Positions 14,401-36,355 of a stretch of DNA of 42,576 bases are shown here, piece by piece. The stretch comes from Clostridia bacterium (GTDB lineage: Bacteria > Bacillota > Clostridia > UMGS1883 > UMGS1540). Where the stretch lies: positions 1 through 42,576 of the forward strand of contig JAZSDW010000070.1 of NCBI GenBank assembly GCA_045531355.1. The letters run 5' to 3'. Position 1 is the stretch's first letter. Each line of letters begins with the position of its first letter. The notes below the pieces were generated by a model, which worked only from the letters and a program-made list of their open reading frames with translations, did no database searches and was not told where the DNA came from. The position numbers and the translations under genes were made by a program.

Positions 14401-14441
14401 AAAAAAGATACGACGCATGCTTTTTGCATGCGTCGTTTTTT
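14401..14441. terminator. Bidirectional terminator between topoisomerase B and aroQ
   Basis: Perfect 11-bp stem ACGACGCATGC/GCATGCGTCGT with A and T runs nearby. Confidence 0.88.
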
Positions 14442-14904
14442 AATATAAAGGAATGTATTCGTCTTGCACGGATTTCCCGAAATGCTCCTTAAGATACAAA
14501 ATCGCACGGCGGTATCCGTCAAAGCCAAGCCCCATAAAGGTTTTAACGGCCACAGCCCGCACATACGAAATCTGACGGAAAGCTTCGCGCCGCCGTACAT
14601 CCGAAATATGTACCTCTACCGTGGGCAGGCTGACCGCTTCGATTGCATCGGCAATTGCGATGCTCGTATGTGTGTATGCCGCAGGATTGATTACAATGCC
14701 GTCCGCTTTACCATAAGCTTCCTGAATTTTCGTAATGATTTCGCCTTCGGAATTGGACTGGAATACCTCAATTTCAATTCCCTCCGCTTCCCCGACACCC
14801 AAAAGGAACGCCACCAGGTCCGCATAGGTTTGTGTCCCGTAAATTTCCGGTGCACGAATGCCCAGCATATTGAGATTGGGGCCGTTAATCACAAGAATTT
14901 TCAT
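14440..14904 (-). CDS. aroQ: Type II 3-dehydroquinate dehydratase
   Basis: NGPNLNMLG.R.PEIYG, INPAAYTHTS, EVHISD. Confidence 0.96.
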   Translation of the reverse strand: MKILVINGPNLNMLGIRAPEIYGTQTYADLVAFLLGVGEAEGIEIEVFQSNSEGEIITKIQEAYGKADGIVINPAAYTHTSIAIADAIEAVSLPTVEVHISDVRRREAFRQISYVRAVAVKTFMGLGFDGYRRAILYLKEHFGKSVQDEYIPLY

Positions 14905-16123
14905 AAAGCCGTATCACCCTTTCTGTTATTTCTGCCTCCGAAGCCTGATTTTCAATTTCAATGTCGGCAAGTGCCGCATAAAGCGGCGCCCGTGCCTGAT
15001 ACATGACCGCAAGGTCGGCAGTTTCCGAAAGCGGTCGCCCGCCGCGTGCCAGCTGATTTATATCACGCTGCACCCATAGAATTACGCCGTTTTGTCGAAG
15101 ATGCGGCGCATTTTCCGCTCTGGTTACGCATCCGCCACCGGTGGCCAGAATTAACCCGCATTCCTTCCCGTACTGTTTTATAATCTCGGTCTCTCTTCTG
15201 CGGAAGCCTTCCTCTCCCTCGTTTTGAAAAATCTCCGGAATGCGCATACCGGCTGCTGCCTCGATCTCCGCATCCGTATCGACCATCCGTCGCCCCATTT
15301 TTTCGGCGACAGCGCGGGCGATGGTGCTTTTCCCGCAGCCGGGCATCCCAATCAGCACCAGATTTTTCTGTTTCTTTTTAAGACCTGACAAAATTTTTTC
15401 TATTTGCTCGTCCCCAATCGGTGTGCCTGCAAAAAGTTCTGCACTTTCCTTCGCCTGCGCTACCAGCATGGGAAGGCCGTTTTGACACGGAATCCCAAGC
15501 GTCTCCGCCTCTAGAAGAAGCGCCGTTTTGTCCGGATTATAAAGGATATCTAATACGGCGCTGCACTTTGGAAATTTCAAAAGGGAAACAGGTGCTTTTC
15601 CCGTTTCGGGATACATGCCGACCGGCGTGGTATTCACCAAAATTTCAGCATCCGCATGGTTTGAAAGATTCCCATAATGGTTTTCCCCGCTTCTGGAAAT
15701 GATGACGACTGCGCCGGCGCCCATATCACGGCAGACGGCCTCGGCCGTGGCTGCCGCGCCACCGCTTCCTAAAATGACCACCTTTTTTCCCGCCGGGGAA
15801 GCGCCCATTTTTGTCAGCATATAAGAAAATCCGAAATAATCGGTATTGTGCCCATAGAGCCCGCCGTCTTTCGTCCGCACGATGGTGTTAACGCTCTGAA
15901 GGCGCTCGGCAAGCGGGGAAAGCACCGTGCAATAGGGCAAAACTGCCTTCTTATAGGGAATAGTGACATTGATACCATCAAAATCTCTCGCCTGCAAAAA
16001 GGCGGGAAGCGCCTCCTTTGCAATTTCAAAAAGCGAATAGGAATACGCGCCCAGCGCCGCATGAATCTGCGGCGAATAGCTGTGCGTGAGTTTTTCGCCA
16101 ATTAGACCACACTTTTTCATCAC
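14885..16123 (-). CDS. Fused shikimate dehydrogenase-shikimate kinase (AroE-AroK)
   Basis: HSYSP.IH, NVTIPYK, NTDY.G, GSGGAA, NTTPVGM, then GMPGCGKST, FR..E, ATGGG, RPL. Confidence 0.93.
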   Translation of the reverse strand: MMKKCGLIGEKLTHSYSPQIHAALGAYSYSLFEIAKEALPAFLQARDFDGINVTIPYKKAVLPYCTVLSPLAERLQSVNTIVRTKDGGLYGHNTDYFGFSYMLTKMGASPAGKKVVILGSGGAAATAEAVCRDMGAGAVVIISRSGENHYGNLSNHADAEILVNTTPVGMYPETGKAPVSLLKFPKCSAVLDILYNPDKTALLLEAETLGIPCQNGLPMLVAQAKESAELFAGTPIGDEQIEKILSGLKKKQKNLVLIGMPGCGKSTIARAVAEKMGRRMVDTDAEIEAAAGMRIPEIFQNEGEEGFRRRETEIIKQYGKECGLILATGGGCVTRAENAPHLRQNGVILWVQRDINQLARGGRPLSETADLAVMYQARAPLYAALADIEIENQASEAEITERVIRLYENSCD

Positions 16124-16129
16124 ATTCCC

Positions 16130-17284
16130 TCAAATCGTTTCCGTATAGCTTCCAAGATACCGGAATTCTTCACTCATTTTCTCGAGCGCGCAAACAAGCT
16201 GCGCAAACGCTTCGCCGTAAATGCTCGTTTCCAAATCAAAGTAAAACATGAACTCAAAATTACGCTCCGGCATCGGGCGGCTTTCCAGCTTGACGAGATT
16301 GATACCGAGACTGTAAAAGCAGGAAAGCACCTTATAAAGTGCACCCGGCTCGTGCGGCAAAACCATCATGATACTCGTTTTGTCCGCCCCCGGATAAATT
16401 TCGAGTTTCCGGGAAATGCAGATAAAACGCGTATAGTTATTGCCGGAATCCTGCACGGCTTCTTCGAGGCACGAAAGTCCATATAACGCCGCACAATGTC
16501 TTGCACTTAGTGCCGCAACATCGCTTCTTTCCGATTCCGCCACCATTTTGGCCGCCATCGCCGTATTTTCGCAAGGCGTTACGCGGATATCCGGCCCGAG
16601 CGCGGAAAGAAATCCGCTGCATTGCCGGATGGCCTGCTCATGCGTAAAAATTTCGCGGATATCGGATTTTTTCGCGCCTTTCTTTGCCAGAAGGGTATGA
16701 TCGACCTTAATGCGTGTGCTTTTTACAATATAAAAATTATGCGCCCGCATTTTATCATACACTTGATTGACAGAGCCGGCCGTGCTGTTTTCAATCGGCA
16801 AAACGCCGTAGCGGCACAGTCCCTTCTCGATGGCGGAAAATACGCCGTCAAAAGAATTAAAATATAAAATATCCGCTCTTTGCAGCATTCTGTCACAGGC
16901 CATTTGCGCGTATGCGCCCTCCACGCCCTGACATGCTACCGTTGCCTTCTGCGGAAATTCGCAATTTTCCATTTCATGTCTCGCGGCCAAAATCGTATCA
17001 TAAAGCGGACTTTCCGGCTCCATCAGTTTTGCCTGATACGCACGGCTGAGTGCAAAAATCGAGCTGTATAAGGTCCCTACATAAGACGAAAACGCCTCGC
17101 CGGCCTCCGCTTCCACGGCCGCCAGCTTTTCCCGCTCCCGCTTCACATCTAAAACCGGAAGCCCTTGTTCCTTCTTATAGGCCGCAATATCCCCAGCAAT
17201 TTCCATTCGTTTTGTAAAAAGTTCCACGAGCTTTGTATCAATTGTATTGATTTCGTCCCTATACTGTGTAAGCTTATTTTCCAT
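16130..17284 (-). CDS. pheA: Chorismate mutase / prephenate dehydratase (P-protein)
   Basis: N-terminal CM domain, PIENS..GSV, NYTRF, ACT domain with LESRP. Confidence 0.94.
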   Translation of the reverse strand: MENKLTQYRDEINTIDTKLVELFTKRMEIAGDIAAYKKEQGLPVLDVKREREKLAAVEAEAGEAFSSYVGTLYSSIFALSRAYQAKLMEPESPLYDTILAARHEMENCEFPQKATVACQGVEGAYAQMACDRMLQRADILYFNSFDGVFSAIEKGLCRYGVLPIENSTAGSVNQVYDKMRAHNFYIVKSTRIKVDHTLLAKKGAKKSDIREIFTHEQAIRQCSGFLSALGPDIRVTPCENTAMAAKMVAESERSDVAALSARHCAALYGLSCLEEAVQDSGNNYTRFICISRKLEIYPGADKTSIMMVLPHEPGALYKVLSCFYSLGINLVKLESRPMPERNFEFMFYFDLETSIYGEAFAQLVCALEKMSEEFRYLGSYTETI

Positions 17285-17287
17285 CTT

Positions 17288-18391
17288 CTATATCTCCTTC
17301 CAAACACTTTTCGGGTCTAAGAGCGCATCCAAAAGCACGAGCGCTGTCATCGCTTCCAGAACGGGGACTGCTCTCGGCACAATGCATGGGTCATGTCGAC
17401 CTGTAACCGTCAAGGTTTCAGCCGTTTTGTTCACTATGTTCACGCTCTCCTGCGGCATGGAAATCGAAGGCGTAGGCTTTACTGCCACCTCGTATACAAG
17501 GGGCATGCCCGTTGTAATGCCGCCCAATGTGCCGCCATGACGGTTGGTGCAGGTTTTTATCTGCCCGGCTTCGTCCATATAAAAGGCGTCATTATTCTCG
17601 CTTCCATATAAATCTGCTGCCGCAAAACCATTCCCGAAGGCAATTCCGCGTATCGCCGGAATCCCAAAAATCGCTTCGGCCATACGCCCCTCTATGCGGC
17701 GGAACATGGGTGCCCCCAGCCCTGCCGTTAGGCCTATGGCCGCGACCATAACCGTACCACCGACCGAATCACCCCTAAGGCGCGCCGTTTCAATTTCGTG
17801 CTGCATTTCTTCACCGGCCGCATCGTCATAGGTCGGAAACGCTTTCGCCGCAATGCGCCGCAGCGCCGGCATGTCTTCCGCTCCATAGGTCGGGGCTTTC
17901 CCTTCTATACCATGAATGCGCTGCACATGCGCAAAAATCTCAATTCCTTTTTTCTGAAGCATCTGCATTGCAATTCCGCCGGCAATGCAAAGCGGTGCCG
18001 TCAGCCGGCCGGAAAAATGGCCGCCGCCGCGCCTGTCCTGAAACCCGCCGTATTTGATCTCCGCCGAAAGGTCCGCATGGCCGGGACGCGGCACTTCCTG
18101 ATGCGCCGCATAATCGCCGGAACGCGTATTTGTATTTTGTATTGTGGCAAGAATCGGTGCGCCAGTTGTGACATTGTCCATAAGACCGGATAAAAAGGTC
18201 GGCACATCCGCTTCTTTACGGGGCGTGGAAAACCGGTTTTGTCCCGGCGCCCGGCGCTTTAGAAAAGCGGAAAGCGCCTCCATATCGACCGTAAATCCGG
18301 CCGGAAGCCCGTCTATAATAACGCCAAGCGCTTCCCCGTGCGACTCACCGGCTACCGATACCCGGATGTTGTTTCCAAAACTACTGCTCAT
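17288..18391 (-). CDS. aroC: Chorismate synthase
   Basis: GESHG, PRPGHAD, GGGHFSGR, GDS.GG, KPTPSI, GRHDPC. Confidence 0.97.
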   Translation of the reverse strand: MSSSFGNNIRVSVAGESHGEALGVIIDGLPAGFTVDMEALSAFLKRRAPGQNRFSTPRKEADVPTFLSGLMDNVTTGAPILATIQNTNTRSGDYAAHQEVPRPGHADLSAEIKYGGFQDRRGGGHFSGRLTAPLCIAGGIAMQMLQKKGIEIFAHVQRIHGIEGKAPTYGAEDMPALRRIAAKAFPTYDDAAGEEMQHEIETARLRGDSVGGTVMVAAIGLTAGLGAPMFRRIEGRMAEAIFGIPAIRGIAFGNGFAAADLYGSENNDAFYMDEAGQIKTCTNRHGGTLGGITTGMPLVYEVAVKPTPSISMPQESVNIVNKTAETLTVTGRHDPCIVPRAVPVLEAMTALVLLDALLDPKSVWKEI

Positions 18392-19656
18392 CTTACTACC
18401 TCCTCAATCCCGCCGCCAAGAAATTGAAACTGCTCCCAGAAGTCGGGATACGATTTTTGCACAGCCTCTGCACCCTTTATGTAAACTTTCTCTCGGCAAA
18501 GGAGGGAAGCAATGGCCGCCGCCATGCAGATTCTATGGTCCCCTGCGCTATCTACGCGTCCGCCTTCCAGTGGTACACCGCCAGTAATGAGAAGGCCGTC
18601 CGCCATTTCTGTAATTTCTCCGCCAAGGTTTGAAAGCATTGTGGATACCGATCGCAAGCGGTCGCTTTCCTTAAGTCGAAGGCGTTTCGCCCCATAAATG
18701 CGGGTTTTGCCCGTGGCGGCCGCCGCCAAAACTGCCAGAATCGGTACAAGATCCGGAATTTGCATCGCATCAATTTCCAAAGCGGCGAGCGGTGCTTTTT
18801 TCACCGTTATCCCGTCTGTTTCCGTTTGTACTTGTGCGCCAAACGCCGCAAGAAGCCTGTAAATTTCTTTATCGCCTTGCAGAGAATCCATGGAAAGTCC
18901 CCGCATTGTAATGCCATTCCCAAGTGCGCCGGCCGCAAGGAAGAAAGCCGCATTCGACCAGTCCCCTTCTACCCAAAGCGGCGCGCCGCTTTCATTTCGA
19001 TACTGCTGGGCGCCCGGAATGTGCCAAAAATCCCCCTCGCGCTCAATGCGGATTCCAAAACGCCGAAGCACTTCTATCGTCATTTCGACATATTGGGCGG
19101 ATTCCAGTTCCCCCGCCAGAACGAGCCGGCTATCTGTCTCTAAAAGCGGCAACGCCAGAAGAAGCCCGCTGATAAACTGTGAGGACACATCCCCCGGAAG
19201 CCGGTAGGTACCGCCCGTAAGCTGCCCTTCACAAGCAAGGATCGTTTCGGTTTCCCACCAAAGCTTCATCCCATGCGCCTCCAGCTCTTCCCAAAGCGGG
19301 GAAAGCGGCCGTTTCGGGAGACGCCCGGAAAGCAGAAACCGAGTGGAAATACCCTTTGCGCCGGCTACCGGCAGAAGAAAACGGAGTGTGGAGCCACTTT
19401 CGCCGCAATCGGCCCATGCCACCTTGTCCCGCTCACCCAGCGAAACGGAAAACCCGTCGGCCTCTCGCCGCACGACATGCCCCATTGCCGTAAGACACCG
19501 GGCTGTGGCATCAATATCCTGTGAGGTTTCCCTGCAAAGGACTTTGTGTGCTTCTCCGGAAAGTGCTGCACAAATGAGTAGCCTGTGCGCCTGTGATTTC
19601 GAAGCAATCGCCCCTATCGTTCCCGAAAGACTCCGTGGTGAAATACATAGTTCCAT
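18388..19656 (-). CDS. aroA: EPSP synthase
   Basis: SKS.AHR, GESGSTLRF, SSQFISGLL, LRLKESDR, DHRI.M, KSYPDF. Confidence 0.97.
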   Translation of the reverse strand: MELCISPRSLSGTIGAIASKSQAHRLLICAALSGEAHKVLCRETSQDIDATARCLTAMGHVVRREADGFSVSLGERDKVAWADCGESGSTLRFLLPVAGAKGISTRFLLSGRLPKRPLSPLWEELEAHGMKLWWETETILACEGQLTGGTYRLPGDVSSQFISGLLLALPLLETDSRLVLAGELESAQYVEMTIEVLRRFGIRIEREGDFWHIPGAQQYRNESGAPLWVEGDWSNAAFFLAAGALGNGITMRGLSMDSLQGDKEIYRLLAAFGAQVQTETDGITVKKAPLAALEIDAMQIPDLVPILAVLAAAATGKTRIYGAKRLRLKESDRLRSVSTMLSNLGGEITEMADGLLITGGVPLEGGRVDSAGDHRICMAAAIASLLCREKVYIKGAEAVQKSYPDFWEQFQFLGGGIEEVVR

Positions 19657-19671
19657 ACGCGCTTCCTTCCT

Positions 19672-20721
19672 TTACATTCCGCTTTCTAAAAAGGCCGGCA
19701 ATTCCCCGATGGGGACCGGATATAGTCGGCATCGTCCGATGTCTTCCGGAACCACCAGTGTTATTACATCCCCCTGCCTTTTTTTATCGCCAAGCATCGC
19801 CGCATAAAGCGATTCTTTTGTATACGCCGTTTGGGTTGGCAGCCCAAACTGCCTGCAAACGGAGGCAATTTTGTCCCCAAGTGTTCTTTCGCAAAGACCG
19901 TTTGCCGTTGCACACGCTGCCATCATCACCATGCCCATGGCTACAGCCTGTCCATGCGAAACTGCATATCGGCTGCATGCTTCTATCGCATGGCCGAAAG
20001 TATGTCCCAAATTTAAAAGCTGACGGTTTCCCTTGTCAAACTCGTCTTCTTCGACAATTTTACTTTTCATTCTGATGCAGGCAGCAATCACCCGTTCCCT
20101 ATCAAAAGCTATGCCGGCTTCCTCCAGATGCGCAAAAAGCGCCGTATCCCCGATAACACCGTATTTGATAACTTCAGCACAACCGTCCGAAAAAGTTGCT
20201 TTTGGAAGCGTTTTTAATACCGCTGTGTCGCAGAGCACGGCTTTGGGCTGGTAGAAAGCCCCTGCCAGATTTTTCCCTGCTGCAAGATCAATGGCTGTTT
20301 TCCCACCAACCGACGAATCCACCATCGCCAGAAGCGTTGTTGGAATCTGGATAAAGGGAATCCCGCGCAAATAGGTGGCTGCCGCAAATCCTGCCAAATC
20401 ACCAACCACGCCGCCGCCAAACGCCAGAAGTAAATCCGCGCGCGTAAGCTTCTCTTCGGCTAGAAATTCTAAAAGTCTTATATATTGTGCTGCCTGTTTC
20501 GAGCCCTCTCCCGGCGGAATCACAAATTTTACAAACCGAATCCCACTTCGGGAAAGAGAAGACTCCAGCGTTTTCCCGTGCAAGGCATCCACCGTCTGAT
20601 CCGTCACAATCGCGACATATCGTCCCGGACAAAACGGCAAAAGAAATTCTCCAGCCACCTCGAGCGCGTTTTCCTCCAGAAATACTGTATAGGGCTTCGC
20701 CGTTTTTACCTGTATTTTCAT
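19672..20721 (-). CDS. aroB: 3-dehydroquinate synthase
   Basis: GGGVVGDLAGF, PTTLLAMVDSSVGGKT, LNLGHTFGHA. Confidence 0.97.
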   Translation of the reverse strand: MKIQVKTAKPYTVFLEENALEVAGEFLLPFCPGRYVAIVTDQTVDALHGKTLESSLSRSGIRFVKFVIPPGEGSKQAAQYIRLLEFLAEEKLTRADLLLAFGGGVVGDLAGFAAATYLRGIPFIQIPTTLLAMVDSSVGGKTAIDLAAGKNLAGAFYQPKAVLCDTAVLKTLPKATFSDGCAEVIKYGVIGDTALFAHLEEAGIAFDRERVIAACIRMKSKIVEEDEFDKGNRQLLNLGHTFGHAIEACSRYAVSHGQAVAMGMVMMAACATANGLCERTLGDKIASVCRQFGLPTQTAYTKESLYAAMLGDKKRQGDVITLVVPEDIGRCRLYPVPIGELPAFLESGM

Positions 20722-21566
20722 CCGTCAATCTCCCCTTTTATTCGGCGCCCATCCTCTAAAAGCTGCCATAAGGTCTCTGCGTCTTCCTTCGTGAGCGCCT
20801 CCCGATATGCTTCTAAATTTTCCATAAGACAATCGATTTCCTTTAAAAGCGGCTCCCGATTTTCCAAAAACAGCTCTGTCCACATATCCGGCTGCAAATG
20901 CGCCACACGCGTTAAATCGCGATAACTGCCGGCAGAATGGCCCTTGTGCTGCTTCGCCGTTGGCGATTTTACATATGCGTTCGACACCAGATGTGCAAGC
21001 TGCGAGGTGAACGCAATCCGCGTATCGTGCGCCGCCGCGGTGGTCACGCTCATGAACCCGAAGCCAAGTGGCAGAAGACATTCCTTCACCCTGTCGAGAA
21101 GAGCAATATCGTCAAATACCGGTGGGACAACCACCATGGTAGCGCCTCTGTATAAATCTGCACGGCTATGCTTAAAGCCGGAACGGTGTGTGCCGGCCAT
21201 AGGATGCCCACCGACAAATACGAATCCGTGCGCCTTTGCCAGCGCAAATCCTTTTTCGCAAACGCTCTGCTTTGTGCCGCAGAAATCGACTACCAGCGTA
21301 TTCTTGCCAAAATTCGCAGCGTTTTCCTCCAAAAATGTGACCGCCGCTTTCGGATAGAGCGCAATAATAATCATATCGCACGCCGCCATTTTTTCCGGCG
21401 AAAGCGTATCATCCACCGCGCCGCAAAGGATGGCATATTCGAGCATCAGCTTGTCCCGGTCATCTGCGAAAACCGTATGTCCTGCAAGCTTATAAGCTCT
21501 TGCGGCGCTTCCGCCCATAAGCCCAAGACCTACAATTCCAATCTGCATCCTCATCCCTACCTTCAT
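20718..21566 (-). CDS. tyrA: Prephenate dehydrogenase
   Basis: GLGLMGGS, GHPMAG, HD...A.TSQL.H, RDLTRVA. Confidence 0.93.
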   Translation of the reverse strand: MKVGMRMQIGIVGLGLMGGSAARAYKLAGHTVFADDRDKLMLEYAILCGAVDDTLSPEKMAACDMIIIALYPKAAVTFLEENAANFGKNTLVVDFCGTKQSVCEKGFALAKAHGFVFVGGHPMAGTHRSGFKHSRADLYRGATMVVVPPVFDDIALLDRVKECLLPLGFGFMSVTTAAAHDTRIAFTSQLAHLVSNAYVKSPTAKQHKGHSAGSYRDLTRVAHLQPDMWTELFLENREPLLKEIDCLMENLEAYREALTKEDAETLWQLLEDGRRIKGEIDG

Positions 21567-21584: not shown

Positions 21585-22583
21585 TTACAGAATTTCCCGT
21601 ACCTTTTGAATTTTATTGGAAAGGTGGCAAAACGCATCCGGCGTCAGGGACTGGGCCCCGTCGCAAAGCGCATGCGCCGGGTCGTTATGCACCTCTATCA
21701 TAAGCCCGTCAACACCCGCAGCCGTCGCGGCCATTGCCATAGGCTCTACCAGGCGGGCTTTTCCGGTTGCATGGCTCGGATCTGCAATCACCGGCAGGTG
21801 CGAAAGCTCATGCAAAAGCGGAATGCTGGAAATATCCATGGTGTTGCGTGTGTAAGTTTCATAGGTCCGGATGCCGCGCTCACACAGAATTACATTGCCG
21901 TTGCCACCAGCCATAATATATTCCGCACTCATCAGGAACTCCTTGAGCGTATTGGCAAGACCACGCTTTAAAAGAACCGGCTTTTTCGTTCTGCCCAGTT
22001 CCTTTAAAAGATCAAAGTTCTGCATGTTCCTGGCACCCACCTGAATCAGATCCACCTCTTCAAAAAGGTCCAAATGATTCGCATTCATAATTTCCGTTAC
22101 AATCGGCATCCCGGTAACTCGTTTTGCCTCAAGAAGCAGTTCAATCCCATCTGCTCGAAGGCCTTGAAAATCATAGGGAGAGGTGCGGGGTTTGAATGCG
22201 CCTCCGCGCAAAAGGCTGGCACCTGCTGCTTTGACCTTCTCTGCTACCTCGATAATCTGGTCATGCGATTCCACAGAACACGGCCCTGCAATCATGGCAA
22301 AATGTCCGCCGCCGATTTTTACACCACCTACATCCACCACGGTATCCTCAGGATGGAATTTCCGGTTGCACTGCTTAAACGGGTCGGACACGCGCTTGAC
22401 AGATTCGATAATTGCGAGGCTGTCCAAAAGCTCCATATCAATTTTGGAAGTGTCTCCCACCAGCCCTAAAACCGTATAATCCACGCCGCATGAACGGTGT
22501 ACCTCAACGCCCTGTTCCTCAAGCCATTGGACAAGATGGGCAATCTGCTCTTCGCTGGTTTTCTTTTTGATAACTGCGATCAT
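21585..22583 (-). CDS. aroF: DAHP synthase type I-beta with N-terminal ferredoxin/ACT-like regulatory domain
   Basis: AGPCSVES, GAFKPRTSPY, QVGARNMQNF, LKRG, CERGIR, DPSH; start is ATG 22583 after AGGAGG. Confidence 0.96.
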   Translation of the reverse strand: MIAVIKKKTSEEQIAHLVQWLEEQGVEVHRSCGVDYTVLGLVGDTSKIDMELLDSLAIIESVKRVSDPFKQCNRKFHPEDTVVDVGGVKIGGGHFAMIAGPCSVESHDQIIEVAEKVKAAGASLLRGGAFKPRTSPYDFQGLRADGIELLLEAKRVTGMPIVTEIMNANHLDLFEEVDLIQVGARNMQNFDLLKELGRTKKPVLLKRGLANTLKEFLMSAEYIMAGGNGNVILCERGIRTYETYTRNTMDISSIPLLHELSHLPVIADPSHATGKARLVEPMAMAATAAGVDGLMIEVHNDPAHALCDGAQSLTPDAFCHLSNKIQKVREIL

Positions 22584-22597
22584 TTTTATTCCTCCTG

Positions 22598-22635
22598 AAA
22601 AAAATAAGGCTACACAGAGGATTTCTGTGTAGCCT
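22598..22635 (-). terminator. Attenuator terminator (3:4 hairpin) upstream of aroF
   Basis: Perfect 12-bp stem AGGCTACACAGA-aatcc-TCTGTGTAGCCT followed by TATTTTTTT, just before the aroF RBS. Confidence 0.9.
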
Positions 22636-22657
22636 GCTATACGAACCGCGTTTGCCT

Positions 22658-22753
22658 TTAGTTCAAACTGTTTGCAACACAAAAACCCTTTACTTTGGTG
22701 CTGTTAAAGTAAAAGTAAAAGTAATATTTGTTTGCAAACAGATTGTTGTGCAT
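22658..22753 (-). CDS. Tyr/Phe-rich leader peptide of the aro operon, 31 aa, MHNNLFANKYYFYFYFNSTKVKGFCVANSLN
   Basis: Hand translation from ATG 22753 to TAA 22658; AGAAGG RBS 9 nt upstream; codons 10-16 are TAT TAC TTT TAC TTT TAC TTT; lies between promoter and terminator. Confidence 0.85.
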   Translation of the reverse strand: MHNNLFANKYYFYFYFNSTKVKGFCVANSLN

Positions 22754-22784
22754 GGCAAAAGACCTTCTTTCTTTGTATGAATTT

Positions 22785-22813
22785 AGTATACGCCTAAAAA
22801 ATTTTTTTGTCAA
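22785..22813 (-). promoter_or_regulatory. sigmaA promoter of the leader peptide and aro operon
   Basis: TTGACA (22813-22808), 17 bp, TATACT (22790-22785). Confidence 0.85.
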
Positions 22814-22837
22814 GAACTTTTTTTAAATTTTTTTGGA

Positions 22838-22866
22838 TTGACACCTTCCTATAAATAGCGTATAAT
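22838..22866 (+). promoter_or_regulatory. Consensus sigmaA promoter
   Basis: TTGACA, 17 bp, TATAAT. Confidence 0.88.
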
Positions 22867-22891
22867 AGGGAAAACAGAAGTGGAGGCATTT

Positions 22892-24121
22892 ATGAGAAAA
22901 AGAATTTTATCCATCCTTTTATGCGGGTTCCTTTTCGCGATGCCGGTTTCGGCCTCCGTTTGTGAACTCAACATCGGCGATCGTTCTCTTCGTACCTTTG
23001 AAGATGGCGCCATCGGCGAAATCCCACTCGACGCCCCGGCCTTTTTAAGCCCTGAAGGGCGCACAATGGTTCCCATCCGGGCCATTGCCACGGCGCTCGG
23101 CGCCGAAGTAGGCTGGGTAGACGAAACGAAAACGGTTACGCTTACAAAAGGCGACACCACCCTGTCGCTTACGATAGGCGCAAATATGGCGTTTCGAAAT
23201 GGGGAGGCTATGCAGCTGGATAGCCCGCCGTGCATTGTAGAAAAGCGTACAATGGTGCCGCTTCGCTTTATCAGCGAAGCCTTTCTGGCCGAGGTTTCTT
23301 ATCTGGATGCGACAAAGTGTGTTTTAATTGATGCTAGTGGCGTCATTATGCGTACCGCGTCTTCGTGTCTGACGAAAGCCCAGCTGGATACACTCTGTGG
23401 CCTTTTGCACCACCAAAACCAGGCGGATGCGGCTGCATATGGTATCGACAAGGAAACCTTCACAAAACTTTGTGTTGAAGCCGCCTACGAACACGGCATG
23501 GAGCTTCTGAAAATGGAAGCCGCCTTCCCGGAAATTACGGCCGACGCTGAAACAATGCAAAAGATTTCCGAAGAAGCTGCAGCGCTTTCTTCTGGTCCCT
23601 ATATGCCGCTTCCAGGCATGCGCGCGCTTCTCCATCTGCGCATGTATCAAACAGGCAGCCAGATGGTCTATGCACATTTCATGGAAAAGAAGGCAGACTT
23701 TCTGGACACCTATCTGCAGAATTATATCTGTGCAAAGCATGTTTTATGTCAAGACGAAGAAACAGCGAAGCTCGTCTATGAAAAAGCGATTGGCGGTGAA
23801 TCGTTTGATGCGCTGATTTCTGCCTATAATATAGACCCCGGCATGTCCGCAAATCCCGATGGCTATGTGTTTACGCGCGGCGAAATGGTGCTTCCTTTTG
23901 AAGAAGCTGCCTTTTCCGCCCGAGAAGGTGAAATCACCCCGCCGGTAAAAACAGATTATGGCTACCATGTTCTCCAGCGTCTGCCACTGCCAAAGATGAG
24001 CGACGATACGCTTATTCAGCTTGCGTATCCCGTCATTTTGGCACGCTACCAGGCAGCAGAAACGCCGCAGTGCTTTAAAACCGTAGAGGAACTGCTTCCT
24101 CTGTATCAAACCGCAGAATAA
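22892..24121 (+). CDS. Secreted protein with a copper-amine-oxidase-like N-terminal (stalk) domain and a C-terminal parvulin/PpiC PPIase domain
   Basis: Signal peptide; GRTMVPIRAIA..LGA.V.W and RTMVPLRFISE repeats; AKHVL..., GEMVLPFEEAAF, PVKTDYGYH; ATG 22892 after GGAGG. Confidence 0.85.
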   Translation: MRKRILSILLCGFLFAMPVSASVCELNIGDRSLRTFEDGAIGEIPLDAPAFLSPEGRTMVPIRAIATALGAEVGWVDETKTVTLTKGDTTLSLTIGANMAFRNGEAMQLDSPPCIVEKRTMVPLRFISEAFLAEVSYLDATKCVLIDASGVIMRTASSCLTKAQLDTLCGLLHHQNQADAAAYGIDKETFTKLCVEAAYEHGMELLKMEAAFPEITADAETMQKISEEAAALSSGPYMPLPGMRALLHLRMYQTGSQMVYAHFMEKKADFLDTYLQNYICAKHVLCQDEETAKLVYEKAIGGESFDALISAYNIDPGMSANPDGYVFTRGEMVLPFEEAAFSAREGEITPPVKTDYGYHVLQRLPLPKMSDDTLIQLAYPVILARYQAAETPQCFKTVEELLPLYQTAE

Positions 24122-32356: not shown

Positions 32357-32447
32357 GGCGGAGAAGGAGAGATTCGAACTCTCGCACCAGTTTCCCAGCC
32401 TACTCCCTTAGCAGGGGAGCCCCTTCGACCTACTTGGGTACTTCTCC
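32356..32447 (-). tRNA. tRNA-Ser(GCT)
   Basis: GGAGAAG acceptor stem, anticodon arm CTCCC-CT-GCT-AA-GGGAG, long variable arm, GTTCGAATC, encoded CCA. Confidence 0.97.
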
Positions 32448-32532: not shown

Positions 32533-32619
32533 TGGCGGAGGAGGTGGGATTCGAACCCACGGCTCTTACGAGTCACTGGTTTTCAAGACCGGCTCCTTAA
32601 ACCGCTCGGACACCTCTCC
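32533..32619 (-). tRNA. tRNA-Ser(TGA)
   Basis: GGAGAGGTGTCCGAG...CT-TGA-AA...GTGGGTTCGAATCCCAC...GCCA; long variable arm. Confidence 0.93.
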
Positions 32620-35333: not shown

Positions 35334-35339
35334 GTGCTT

Positions 35340-35425
35340 ATAAATCCGGGGAGCCGCAAGGCTGAGAGGAAGCGTCCGCTTCGACCCGTAACCTGATTTG
35401 GGTAATTCCAACGGAGGGAGTATAT
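35340..35425 (+). ncRNA. TPP riboswitch
   Basis: GGGGAGC...GCTGAGAGG...GACCCGTAACCTGAT.TGGGTAATTCCAACGGAGGGA matches the TPP core; upstream of thiT. Confidence 0.95.
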
Positions 35426-35434
35426 TGTAGGGAT

Positions 35435-35468
35435 AAACCTGTGCTCTCTTCGGGGCGCAGGTTTTTTA
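35435..35468 (+). terminator. Expression-platform terminator of the TPP riboswitch
   Basis: AAACCTGTGCTC/GGGCGCAGGTTT stem plus T-run. Confidence 0.8.
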
Positions 35469-36034: not shown

Positions 36035-36063
36035 TTGCATTTTCCCTTTTTTTGTGCTATACT
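36035..36063 (+). promoter_or_regulatory. sigmaA promoter of the cobalamin riboswitch operon
   Basis: TTGCAT-17-TG-n-TATACT. Confidence 0.75.
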
Positions 36064-36074
36064 GAAATTGCACA

Positions 36075-36268
36075 CAGAGTGTCGGGTATGCCGCAAAAGG
36101 GATGCCCGGTGAAAAGGGAATGGGGTGAAAATCCCCTGCGAGCACTGTCGCTGTATGTAGGAAGACATATATCCGCTGGCGAAAGCCGGTCATTGGGAAA
36201 CTGAGAAGGCTAGGGTATGTGTTGCCGGGTTTTACCCCCGAACCTACGAGCCAGAAGACCTGCTCTGG
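36075..36268 (+). ncRNA. Cobalamin (B12) riboswitch
   Basis: TGAAAAGGGAA.GGGGTGAAAATCCCC, GCTGTA, CATTGGGAAAC.GAGAAGG and B12 box GAGCCAGAAGACCTGC; ends approximate. Confidence 0.92.
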
Positions 36269-36355
36269 TGGCCAATTCTTCCCTCTTTTTTTCGTAGGGC
36301 AGGCTATTTCTGCGTGGCATTTTTTTCGCAGGATGTGCAGGTACACAGGAAAAAC

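What the first reader, a model, noticed from the sequence alone, without database searches (positions are those of the whole stretch)
22584..22813. Candidate ribosome-dependent Tyr+Phe attenuator controlling the whole aro/phe/tyr operon in a Clostridia genome
Seen on the minus strand, in order: promoter TTGACA-17-TATACT; an RBS; a 31-aa ORF (22753-22658) with YYFYFYF (seven consecutive Tyr/Phe codons, 22726-22706); a 12-bp terminator with U-tail (22635-22598); then the aroF RBS. The alternative pairings can be read directly. 1:2: CUGUUUGCAA (22741-22732) pairs with UUGCAAACAG (22677-22668), and UUUACUUU within the control codons pairs with AAAGUAAA. 2:3 antiterminator: GGGUUUUUGUGU-U-GC (22688-22674) pairs with GC-U-ACACAGAAAUCC (22633-22619), which sequesters the terminator's 5' arm. 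3:4 is the terminator. Established: this is the trpL/pheL logic of enteric bacteria, whereas Firmicutes usually control amino-acid operons with T-boxes or TRAP. I see no T-box (GGTGGnACC) here. Inference: stalling on either Tyr or Phe codons frees segment 2 and allows read-through. This fits an operon that has tyrA and pheA but no trp genes, and a leader with no Trp codon. I cannot confirm novelty without a literature search.
Basis: partly seen in the sequence, partly recalled or inferred. Interest (0 to 1): 0.92.

Follow-up and report, generated by a model that had tools for sequence, protein, structure and literature searches.

The report
Tyr/Phe leader-peptide attenuator of aro operon
A short upstream reading frame packed with tyrosine and phenylalanine codons, followed by a terminator hairpin, most likely lets this gut-type Clostridia bacterium switch on its aromatic amino acid operon when those two amino acids run short; it is real and widely conserved but belongs to a well-known kind of switch.

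Summary
That covers the promoter, the Shine-Dalgarno site, the 31-aa ORF with YYFYFYF, the 1:2 and 2:3 pairings, the terminator and the aroF start.

It is more than chance. The fold z-score is -5.1. The run of seven Tyr/Phe codons is the longest in any frame of the 1.38-Mb genome.

It is strongly conserved:
- 23 of 24 aroF upstream regions in relatives carry a Tyr/Phe-rich uORF plus a terminator.
- A covariance model finds it in 55 of 87 genomes of the order and 34 of 151 sampled genomes of the class, 22 of 26 examined loci verified.
- A look-alike stands upstream of pheA in Bacteroidales, in 16 of 101 sampled genomes.

The Tyr/Phe run stays in frame while the nucleotides diverge. The conserved stretch 3' of it is read in different frames, or holds the stop codon, so that part is conserved as RNA.

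The best reading is a classical ribosome-mediated transcription attenuator. The kind is known:
- C. glutamicum aroR-aroF (Phe-Tyr-Phe leader).
- Acholeplasma uORFC-13-1.
- F/Y uORFs near shikimate genes (Stav 2019).

No experiment exists for this family and Rfam has no match. Verdict: a new member of a known kind, of moderate interest.

The parts
22785..22813 (-). sigma-70-type promoter: TTGACA, 17 nt, TATACT
   Evidence: 11 of 12 matches. A TTGACA with a -10 element stands at the same place in most relatives' upstream regions printed.
22763..22767 (-). Shine-Dalgarno site (GAAGG) of the leader ORF, 9 nt before its ATG
   Evidence: A purine-rich GGAG-type site precedes the invariant ATG in the 22 aligned Clostridia leaders. 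The Bacteroidales look-alikes have an A-rich stretch and no Shine-Dalgarno site there.
22658..22753 (-). leader ORF, 31 codons plus TAA: MHNNLFANKYYFYFYFNSTKVKGFCVANSLN
   Evidence: An open frame of 17-47 aa with a Tyr/Phe run is present in 23 of 24 relatives' aroF upstream regions.
22706..22726 (-). control codons: seven consecutive Tyr/Phe codons (TAT TAC TTT TAC TTT TAC TTT)
   Evidence: This is the longest Tyr/Phe run in six frames of the whole genome. The run is kept in frame in distant relatives whose nucleotides differ.
22711..22741 (-). segment 1: CUGUUUGCAAACAAA plus the UUUUACUUUU part of the control codons; it pairs with segment 2
   Evidence: minimum-energy structure. Alignment helices 1-3 are 84%, 73% and 95% paired; helices 1 and 2 have 5 and 3 pairs changed on both sides, helix 3 none.
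22668..22695 (-). segment 2: AAAGUAAAGGGUUUUUGUGUUGCAAACAG; it pairs either with segment 1 or with the terminator's 5' arm
   Evidence: The conserved nucleotide motif is read in different frames in different genera.
22619..22633 (-). segment 3: GCUACACAGAAAUCC, the terminator's 5' arm and loop, partner of segment 2 in the antiterminator
   Evidence: the constrained fold with a ribosome on the Tyr/Phe codons gives this helix; duplex -18.2 kcal/mol, z -5.3 against shuffles.
22598..22635 (-). intrinsic terminator: 12-bp stem, 5-nt loop, U-tract
   Evidence: -19.6 kcal/mol. In the alignment 9 of its 12 pairs show changes on both sides and 94.7% of cells are paired.
21585..22596 (-). aroF (3-deoxy-7-phosphoheptulonate synthase, 332 aa) with its AGGAGG ribosome-binding site; first gene of the regulated operon
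   Evidence: NF006421, 486 bits.
14410..21566 (-). rest of the operon: tyrA, aroB, aroA, aroC, pheA (chorismate mutase/prephenate dehydratase), fused aroE/aroK, aroQ, and the end terminator at 14436-14410
   Evidence: for the families. for gaps or overlaps of at most 20 nt between genes and for the terminator after aroQ.

Best explanation
This is a classical ribosome-mediated (leader-peptide) transcription attenuator that senses charged tRNA-Tyr and tRNA-Phe.

Transcription starts at the promoter at 22813-22785. The leader RNA can form 1:2 plus the 3:4 terminator (off), or 2:3 (on).

When Tyr and Phe are plentiful, the ribosome runs through the seven Tyr/Phe codons and through segment 2 to the stop codon. 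Segment 2 is then either occupied or re-pairs with segment 1. The terminator at 22635-22598 forms and RNA polymerase stops before aroF.

When either amino acid is short, the ribosome stalls inside 22726-22706 and covers segment 1. Segment 2 (22688-22674) is left free to pair with the terminator's 5' arm (22633-22619) as soon as that arm is made. The terminator cannot form, and the eight-gene aroF-to-aroQ operon is read through.

Without translation, 1:2 and 3:4 form, which gives termination.

Shown here: all sequence elements, the alternative pairings, and their conservation, covariation and gene context. Inferred: stalling, timing, and the actual response to Tyr or Phe.
For: Anatomy.

Constrained folds of the transcript up to the terminator loop:
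- With no ribosome, 1:2 forms and the terminator arm is 40% paired.
- With a ribosome on any of the seven codons, the 2:3 helix forms exactly as predicted and the arm is 73-74% paired.
- The mean over 23 leaders is 0.52 free, 0.71 stalled and 0.51 with the ribosome at the stop codon.

Conservation:
- A Tyr/Phe uORF plus a terminator stands upstream of aroF in 23 of 24 relatives.
- Model R1 matches 55 of 87 genomes of the order and 34 of 151 sampled genomes of the class.
- Of 26 class loci examined, 22 have a Tyr/Phe- or Phe-rich uORF. Of those 22, 18 are followed by aroF, 2 by pheA and 2 by an ABC importer.

Covariation:
- The off structure is 88.5% paired against 38-50% when partners are slid. 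It has 17 pairs changed on both sides; 0 of 500 shuffles reach that.
- The antiterminator is 79.2% paired against 43-57% when slid.
- The segment 2:3 duplex is -15.9 to -19.7 kcal/mol (z -3.5 to -7.4) in the own genus and g6.
- In leaders not used to build the model, z is -2 or lower in 27 of 35 Clostridia and 10 of 13 Bacteroidales.

Coding against RNA constraint:
- The ATG is invariant.
- The run stays Tyr/Phe where the nucleotides differ, for example FFYYF, YYYFSFNFFF and YFIYFTFTGF.
- The segment-2 motif is read in frame +1 in 11 leaders and +2 in 8. It holds the stop codon in others.

Control: of 80 listed genomic matches to the bare nucleotide pattern, the 30 that match the model lie upstream of aro/phe genes, with few exceptions. 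None of the other 50 has an aro gene downstream on the same strand.

A functional precedent exists in C. glutamicum aroR-aroF.
Against: - No experiment bears on this family.
- At equilibrium, with the whole terminator present, the terminator wins whatever ribosome position is imposed: probability 0.74-0.98 in the own leader, and about the same in most relatives. The switch therefore has to be kinetic, which folding cannot show.
- The antiterminator has little strict column covariation. Only 3 pairs change on both sides, which shuffles match in 488 of 500.
- The antiterminator is weak in genus g12: -8.9 to -10.7 kcal/mol, z -1.1 to -2.0, no better than non-cognate pairs.
- In the own leader the stop codon lies 14 nt past segment 2. 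A terminating ribosome would mask only the last bases of segment 2, so the off state must rely on 1:2 re-forming.
- Bacillota are classed at phylum level as having RNA polymerase that outruns ribosomes. That makes tight timing less certain.
- In C. glutamicum the Phe-Tyr-Phe leader responded to Phe only.
- The only RNA data are one 206-nt metatranscriptome contig that bridges the terminator. DNA carry-over cannot be excluded.
Confidence: 0.85

Rival explanations
1. Same architecture but narrower sensing. The attenuator responds in practice to only one of the two amino acids (Phe, or Tyr). The other codons are tolerated or serve mainly the RNA pairing UACUUU:AAGUAA.
For: In the C. glutamicum aroR leader (Phe-Tyr-Phe), Phe limitation raised transcription while Tyr availability had no effect, as summarised in the review read. 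The strict UUUUACUUUUACUUU nucleotide conservation is partly explained by pairing with AAAGUAA in segment 2 (helix 3). One relative upstream of pheA has a Phe-rich, Tyr-free leader (L071).
Against: Tyr and Phe codons both persist in distant leaders where the nucleotides and the pairing register differ. The operons nearly always hold both tyrA and pheA, or aroF with tyrA.
Confidence: 0.2
2. A translation-independent RNA switch. The conserved hairpins would bind a protein, a tRNA or a small molecule, and the open frame would be incidental.
For: Segment 2 and the UACUUU repeats are conserved as nucleotides, and segment 2 is read in several frames. The 1:2 hairpin is very stable.
Against: No Rfam family, T-box included, reaches its threshold. 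The ATG is invariant and is preceded by lineage-appropriate start signals: a Shine-Dalgarno site in Clostridia, an A-rich stretch without one in Bacteroidales. The frame is open in all verified members, and Tyr/Phe enrichment survives nucleotide divergence. In the +2 frame the same bases would read Leu codons, yet the ATG always selects the Tyr/Phe frame and the downstream genes are aromatic-pathway genes.
Confidence: 0.05
3. A separate small gene. It would encode a hydrophobic aromatic-rich micropeptide with its own terminator that merely happens to lie upstream of aroF.
For: It has a promoter, a ribosome-binding site, an ORF and a terminator. Within a genus the peptide tail is conserved, for example EV[KR]DFCVA.
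Against: The tail conservation is at RNA level, with different frames or a stop codon inside the same nucleotide motif. Only the Tyr/Phe run is shared across families. The element always lies directly upstream of aromatic amino acid genes, in two phyla. Segment 2 inside or just after the ORF is complementary to the terminator arm. aroF has no promoter of its own between the terminator and its ribosome-binding site.
Confidence: 0.03

Closest known systems
Corynebacterium glutamicum aroR leader upstream of the aroF operon (Neshat et al. 2014; seen only as summarised in passages of the review PMC11802643)
   Same: A leader peptide with mixed Phe and Tyr control codons (Phe-Tyr-Phe) upstream of the DAHP synthase gene. 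Ribosome stalling raises read-through, and there is experimental support.
   Different: It is in Actinobacteria. It has three control codons rather than seven. It was reported to respond to Phe and not to Tyr. No sequence relation was tested here, because no sequence of it was at hand.
Escherichia coli pheL-pheA and trpL attenuators (textbook; passages; Rfam name Phe_leader recalled)
   Same: Four-segment logic: control codons in segment 1, mutually exclusive 1:2, 2:3 and 3:4 helices, and an intrinsic terminator before the first biosynthetic gene.
   Different: They are in Gammaproteobacteria and carry Phe-only or Trp-only codons. No Rfam leader family matched the region even at E up to 10. 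Here one leader governs the common pathway plus both the Tyr and Phe branches.
uORFC-13-1 motif upstream of aroF in Acholeplasma (Brewer et al. 2021, PMC8632094; section 26 read in full)
   Same: A uORF with a promoter, ribosome-binding site and Phe codon(s), immediately upstream of a terminator and of aroF. An attenuation mechanism was proposed. It is also in Bacillota in the broad sense.
   Different: It was reported only in Acholeplasma and environmental sequences (24 representatives). It is described as a run of U coding for at least one Phe, and no Tyr is mentioned. Its alignment is in a supplement I could not open, so relatedness is untested.
Two candidate uORFs associated with shikimate metabolism genes, encoding F and Y (Stav et al. 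2019, PMC6429828; Fig. 6b legend and passages)
   Same: uORFs rich in Phe and Tyr next to shikimate-pathway genes, found in a screen of five genomes that included Clostridium novyi NT. This may be the same family.
   Different: Only the figure legend could be read. The figure and Table S1 are not held, so the host genome, sequence and distribution are unknown to me. The text gives no mechanism, covariation or distribution analysis.
Leader-peptide attenuators already predicted or shown in Firmicutes. These are the His leaders in the Bacillus cereus group, Peptostreptococcaceae and Erysipelotrichales (PMC2965389 and PMC9413887, passages), the S. aureus ilv-leu Leu-rich attenuator peptide (PMC5794164, listing only), and the Lactococcus leu/phe leader (Rfam RF01743, recalled).
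   Same: The same kind of switch in the same phylum, which shows that Firmicutes are not restricted to T-boxes and TRAP.
   Different: They concern other amino acids or other lineages. None matched this region in the Rfam scans.

Membership tests
Ribosome-mediated (leader-peptide) transcription attenuator | A short ORF with start codon and ribosome-binding site close behind the promoter and upstream of the structural genes | tested here: met
   The ATG is invariant and a Shine-Dalgarno site is present in 22 of 22 aligned leaders.
Ribosome-mediated (leader-peptide) transcription attenuator | Clustered control codons for the amino acid(s) made by the regulated operon | tested here: met
   There are seven consecutive Tyr/Phe codons. 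The operon holds tyrA and pheA plus the common pathway. The run is conserved in frame in 23 of 24 relatives and in 22 of 26 class loci.
Ribosome-mediated (leader-peptide) transcription attenuator | An intrinsic terminator between the leader ORF and the first structural gene | tested here: met
   In the alignment 9 of 12 stem pairs have changes on both sides.
Ribosome-mediated (leader-peptide) transcription attenuator | An antiterminator (2:3) that excludes the terminator, and an anti-antiterminator (1:2) that overlaps the control codons | tested here: met
   The 2:3 pairing is weaker in genus g12.
Ribosome-mediated (leader-peptide) transcription attenuator | Read-through depends on translation of the leader and rises on starvation for the cognate amino acid | not testable with these tools
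   This needs Term-seq, reporters or ribosome profiling. The only RNA datum is one contig that bridges the terminator.
T-box riboswitch (Rfam RF00230) | A match to the T-box covariance model (specifier loop, T-box sequence, antiterminator bulge) | tested here: not met
   No match in the window at gathering score, nor in 22500-22900 at E up to 10. The same genome has 6 T-box matches elsewhere.
Rfam amino acid leader families (Phe_leader, leu/phe leader, Trp_leader and others; names recalled) | A match to the family covariance model | tested here: not met
   None of the 11 weak matches at E up to 10 is a leader family. There were 0 matches at gathering score in eight relatives' loci from both phyla.
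uORFC-13-1 (Acholeplasma aroF uORF) and the Stav 2019 shikimate uORFs | Sequence or model similarity to the published alignments | not tested
Only the text and a figure legend were read.

The most novel reading that the evidence does not exclude
The window holds one member of a large RNA-plus-peptide family that is still uncurated and, as far as I could find, unnamed. On this reading the family is the main Tyr/Phe sensor of gut and rumen Clostridia and, in a closely similar form, of Bacteroidales.

The two phyla would share it by common descent or horizontal transfer of the leader alone, since their PheA proteins are only about 30% identical.

Its regulon would reach beyond the shikimate pathway. 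It would include an aryl-acid CoA ligase with an indolepyruvate-type ferredoxin oxidoreductase, and a PF04392 ABC importer.

Its wide use in Bacillota would also mean that the first ribosome keeps pace with RNA polymerase over the first roughly 150 nt in these Clostridia, although the phylum has been classed as having runaway transcription.
Probability: 0.25. Interest if true: 0.55.

Novelty: new member of a known kind. Interest (0 to 1): 0.36.

Why it matters
- Regulon prediction. It gives a simple, sequence-readable handle on aromatic amino acid regulation in uncultured gut and rumen Clostridia and in Bacteroidales, where no regulator of these operons is annotated and Rfam has no model. With the two models built here, regulons can be predicted. 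Second copies upstream of an AMP-ligase with a 2-oxoacid:ferredoxin oxidoreductase operon, and upstream of an ABC importer, suggest which accessory genes serve Tyr/Phe supply.
- Coupling in Bacillota. It is a natural test case for whether ribosome-dependent attenuation works in Bacillota, a phylum that a recent paper classes as having RNA polymerase that outruns ribosomes.
- An evolutionary point. The control codons (UAC UUU) fix segment 1. That largely fixes segment 2 (AAGUAA...), and through it the terminator. This may explain near-identical cores in two phyla without homology, which is testable.
- Limits. None of this changes the textbook picture of attenuation, and similar Phe/Tyr leaders are already in print.

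Tried and rejected
- Equilibrium folding of the complete leader with a ribosome footprint imposed. The terminator stays above 0.9 probability in most sequences whatever the ribosome position, so thermodynamics alone cannot show the switch. I changed to transcripts cut at the terminator loop.
- Strict column covariation for the antiterminator. It is weak: 3 pairs changed on both sides, matched by 488 of 500 shuffles. The register differs between genera, so I used per-sequence duplex energies instead. Those controls shuffle single bases only.
- The Rfam sub-threshold match to RF04312 (trpB motif, 25.4 bits against a cut-off of 59) did not reappear when a shorter stretch was scanned. I dropped it as chance.
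- Expression data. Only one RNA run held any of the stretch (share 0.09, contigs only). When laid, it gave one 206-nt contig at 22467-22672 with 1 difference, running from segment 2 across the terminator into aroF. The other pieces were short and 90-95% alike, so probably from other organisms. Contigs cannot show 3' ends and DNA may be present. Parts without cover mean nothing.
- A crude genome-wide scan for other leader peptides (perfect-stem terminators only) gave 5 candidates. Only the aro leader is convincing. This does not show that others are absent.
- Weak model hits. R1 matches of about 33-43 bits are often bare terminators: L075, L078, L079, L080, L205, L206, L215, L216 and L217. The raw tallies therefore overcount slightly at the weak end, while Infernal's strict filters undercount divergent members.
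- L023 (G017) has aroF but no leader. L076 was dropped because no terminator was found, and L082 because it is cut by the contig end.
- Literature. Searches found no paper that describes this Clostridia or Bacteroidales Tyr/Phe leader by sequence. The library lacks most subscription journals. Lopatovskaya et al. 2010 and Neshat et al. 2014 are not held: the first I only recall, the second I know from a review. The supplements of Stav 2019 and Brewer 2021 are closed and may hold this very motif.
Full report

Yes. On the minus strand the elements are:
- TTGACA at 22813-22808, a 17-nt spacer, and TATACT at 22790-22785. The promoter scan scores this 11 of 12.
- GAAGG at 22767-22763.
- ATG at 22753.
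- A 31-codon frame, MHNNLFANKYYFYFYFNSTKVKGFCVANSLN, ending with TAA at 22660-22658.
- Seven consecutive Tyr/Phe codons at 22726-22706.
- A 12-bp hairpin at 22635-22607, followed by TATTTTTTT.
- AGGAGG at 22596-22591 and the aroF ATG at 22583.

The region folds far better than shuffles: -57.2 against -37.3 +/- 3.9 kcal/mol, z -5.1, 0 of 200 shuffles as good. The minimum-energy structure shows the 1:2 helix plus the terminator.

In all six frames of the 1.38-Mb genome this is the only run of seven or more Tyr/Phe codons.

The neighbour upstream is a divergent plus-strand gene at 22880-24121 for a secreted-looking PPIase, with a perfect promoter of its own. The hairpin is therefore not the terminator of a co-directional upstream gene.

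**2. Context**

The eight genes downstream are aroF, tyrA, aroB, aroA, aroC, pheA (chorismate mutase/prephenate dehydratase), a fused aroE/aroK, and aroQ. Gaps or overlaps between them are at most 20 nt, and a terminator follows at 14436-14410. The operon has no trp gene.

No T-box or other Rfam family reaches its threshold in the leader. The same genome has six T-box matches elsewhere, two of them above the cut-off. So this organism uses T-boxes, but not here.

**3. Conservation near the window**

The AroF protein was found in 24 of 41 genomes, counting the window's own genome and its relatives. In 23 of the 24 upstream regions there is an ATG-started frame of 17-47 aa with a Tyr/Phe run, followed by a hairpin and a T-run. 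Examples of the run are YFFYFYF, YFYFYF, YYYFYF, FFYYF, YYYFSFNFFF and YFFYYSWGFYF. L023 is the one exception.

On an alignment of 22 leaders the results for the two structures were:

| Measure | Off structure (1:2 plus terminator), | Antiterminator (2:3), |
|---|---|---|
| Cells paired | 88.5% | 79.2% |
| Cells paired with 3' partners slid | 38-50% | 43-57% |
| Pairs changed on both sides | 17 | 3 |
| Shuffles reaching that number | 0 of 500 | 488 of 500 |

The antiterminator shows few double changes partly because its register differs between genera.

Taken sequence by sequence:
- The duplex of segment 2 with the terminator's 5' arm is -15.9 to -19.7 kcal/mol (z -3.5 to -7.4) in the own genus and in g6.
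- For the own genus it is about 7-11 kcal/mol better than with other genera's terminators.
- In g12 it is only -8.9 to -10.7 kcal/mol (z -1.1 to -2.0).

**4. Does the switch logic hold in folding?**

With the whole terminator present, equilibrium folding always favours the terminator. That is expected for a kinetic switch.

I then cut the transcript at the terminator loop, which is what exists when the decision is taken. In the own leader this gives:
- With no ribosome, 1:2 forms.

Over 23 leaders the terminator arm is on average 52% paired when free, 71% paired with a stalled ribosome, and 51% paired with a ribosome at the stop codon.

**5. Peptide or RNA?**

Both, in different parts.

The ATG is invariant. 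The Tyr/Phe run stays in frame even where the nucleotides differ.

The conserved motif 3' of the run, AAGUAA(A/G)AG..GAUUUGUG.UGCA (segment 2), is treated differently:
- It is read in frame +1 in 11 leaders, giving ...KVRAICVA.
- It is read in frame +2 in 8 leaders, giving ...SKSDLCC.
- In many other members the TAA inside AGUAAG is the stop codon.

So the tail is conserved as RNA and only the control codons are conserved as codons. This speaks against a functional micropeptide. Together with lineage-specific start signals, it also speaks against a translation-independent RNA. Clostridia have a Shine-Dalgarno site, whereas Bacteroidales have an A-rich leader without one.

**6. Distribution**

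Model R1 gave these matches:

| Sample | Genomes with a match | Threshold |
|---|---|---|
| Order | 55 of 87 (9 of 18 genera) | E <= 0.001 |
| Class | 34 of 151 | E <= 0.01 |
| Rest of the phylum | 3 of 151 | E <= 1e-5 |

In the phylum sample, the one match outside the class reads as a true Tyr/Phe leader before an aroF-like gene.

Of 26 class-level loci examined, 22 have a Tyr/Phe- or Phe-rich uORF. The script flagged 21 of them, and I read L071 by eye. Of these 22, 18 precede aroF (17 of those also show tyrA), 2 precede pheA and 2 precede an ABC importer. The other 4 are bare terminators.

- 30 of the 80 loci match R1.
- The 29 examined all have Tyr/Phe uORFs.
- 16 are from MAGs or isolates labelled Clostridia, Oscillospiraceae, Acutalibacteraceae, Sporobacter termitidis or Lawsonibacter. 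Of these, 13 precede aroF, one precedes tyrA-aroB, one precedes aroB-aroA, and one has no match.
- 13 are from Bacteroidales, and 12 of these precede pheA.
- The other 50 loci have the bare pattern but no aro gene downstream on the same strand. This serves as a negative control.

A Bacteroidales model, R2, matches 16 of 101 sampled Bacteroidales genomes. The 11 not seen before all have Tyr/Phe uORFs, and 10 of them precede pheA.

In leaders not used for model R1, the spacer-to-terminator-arm duplex beats shuffles (z -2 or lower) in 27 of 35 Clostridia and 10 of 13 Bacteroidales.

**7. Mechanism**

The best-supported reading is the classical one (confidence about 0.85).
- Stalling on Tyr or Phe codons covers segment 1. 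That frees segment 2 to capture the terminator's 5' arm, so the operon is read through.
- Smooth translation, or no translation, lets 1:2 and 3:4 form, so transcription stops.

Shown here: the parts, the alternative pairings, their conservation and the gene association. Inferred: stalling, timing and the physiological response.

Open points:
- The switch may respond to both amino acids or to one. C. glutamicum aroR responded to Phe only.
- How timing is kept is unclear in a phylum classed as having runaway transcription.
- How the off state is secured in the own leader is unclear, because its stop codon lies 14 nt past segment 2.

**8. Comparison with what is known**

The kind is textbook (trpL, pheL). 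For aromatic pathways specifically, several reports exist.
- C. glutamicum has aroR, a Phe-Tyr-Phe leader before aroF with experimental support (review passages).
- Brewer et al. 2021 describe uORFC-13-1 before aroF in Acholeplasma (section read).
- Stav et al. 2019 show, in a figure I could read only through its legend, two candidate uORFs with F and Y next to shikimate genes. Their screen of five genomes included Clostridium novyi NT.
- Guerin et al. 2021 mention a conserved 5' element before pheA in Flavobacteriaceae, and leader-peptide clues upstream of amino acid operons.
- His and Leu leader peptides in Firmicutes are also in print.

I found no paper that gives this family's sequence, structure, distribution or any experiment. 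Subscription journals and supplements were out of reach.

**9. Verdict**

The element is a well-conserved but so far uncurated member of a known class.

It is useful for annotation and as a test bed for coupling in Clostridia. It is not a surprise to a specialist. Interest is 0.36.

Noticed in passing
L085, L087, L088, L091, L103, L107, L108, L114, L124, L136, L139, L140, L144 and L210-L230 (Bacteroidales loci): A look-alike leader stands upstream of pheA (prephenate dehydratase) in Bacteroidales. Its peptides read like MKSFFGTYFYFYFYFSNE, and it has the same UUUUACUUUUACUUU...AGUAAGAGCGGGA core. Segment 2 (GAGCGGGA) is identical to the terminator's 3' arm. There is no Shine-Dalgarno site. Model R2 matches 16 of 101 sampled genomes of the order. 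PheA is only about 30% identical to the window's, so the leader resemblance is either convergence forced by the codons or transfer of the leader alone.
   Followed up: partly
L201:291-446 and L202:239-394 (second copies in two genomes of genus g12): A second full copy of the leader (MSILVFAAAYYYFYFIYSVSKSDFCCN) precedes an AMP-binding ligase with the AMP-binding_C_2 domain (435 aa). A TPP/ferredoxin 2-oxoacid oxidoreductase (581 aa) follows, resembling indolepyruvate oxidoreductase. Induction on Tyr/Phe shortage would fit making aromatic amino acids from aryl acids. That reading is recalled biochemistry and was not tested.
   Followed up: partly
L207:119-243 and L208:96-214: A leader with YAYYYFYFYF precedes an ABC importer made of a PF04392 substrate-binding protein, a BPD_transp_2 permease and an ATPase. 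The model match ends before any terminator, so this copy may work differently.
   Followed up: partly
alignments A2 and A3; The conserved segment-2 nucleotides are read in all three registers in different lineages: as K-V-R-A-I-C-V-A, as S-K-S-D-L-C-C, or with the leader's TAA stop inside AGUAAG.
   Followed up: yes
window 22838-22866 (+) and 22880-24121 (+): A perfect 12-of-12 sigma-70-type promoter points away from the aro promoter. It leads to a 413-aa protein with a copper amine oxidase N-terminal-like domain and a PPIC-type rotamase domain. The minus-strand ORF at 22849-23235 has no family match and is probably not a gene.
   Followed up: partly
window 14885-16123 (-): Shikimate dehydrogenase and shikimate kinase are fused into one 412-aa protein (aroE/aroK).
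   Followed up: no
window 36060-36281 (+), 35337-35437 (+), 32359-32447 (-), 32536-32619 (-): A cobalamin riboswitch (73.3 bits), a TPP riboswitch (56.6 bits, just over its cut-off of 54.3) and two tRNA genes lie elsewhere in the window.
   Followed up: no
G000 contigs C7, C88, C18, C31, C75 and C86: The genome has six T-box matches, two of them above the Rfam cut-off. It therefore uses T-boxes alongside this leader peptide. The genes they control were not looked at.
   Followed up: no
window 22467-22672: One 206-nt contig of a gut metatranscriptome run (1 difference) runs from segment 2 across the terminator into aroF. It is compatible with read-through RNA, but DNA carry-over cannot be excluded.
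   Followed up: partly
L023 (G017, genus g10): This is the one relative with aroF but no leader. The gene there directly follows another coding region, so regulation must differ.
   Followed up: no
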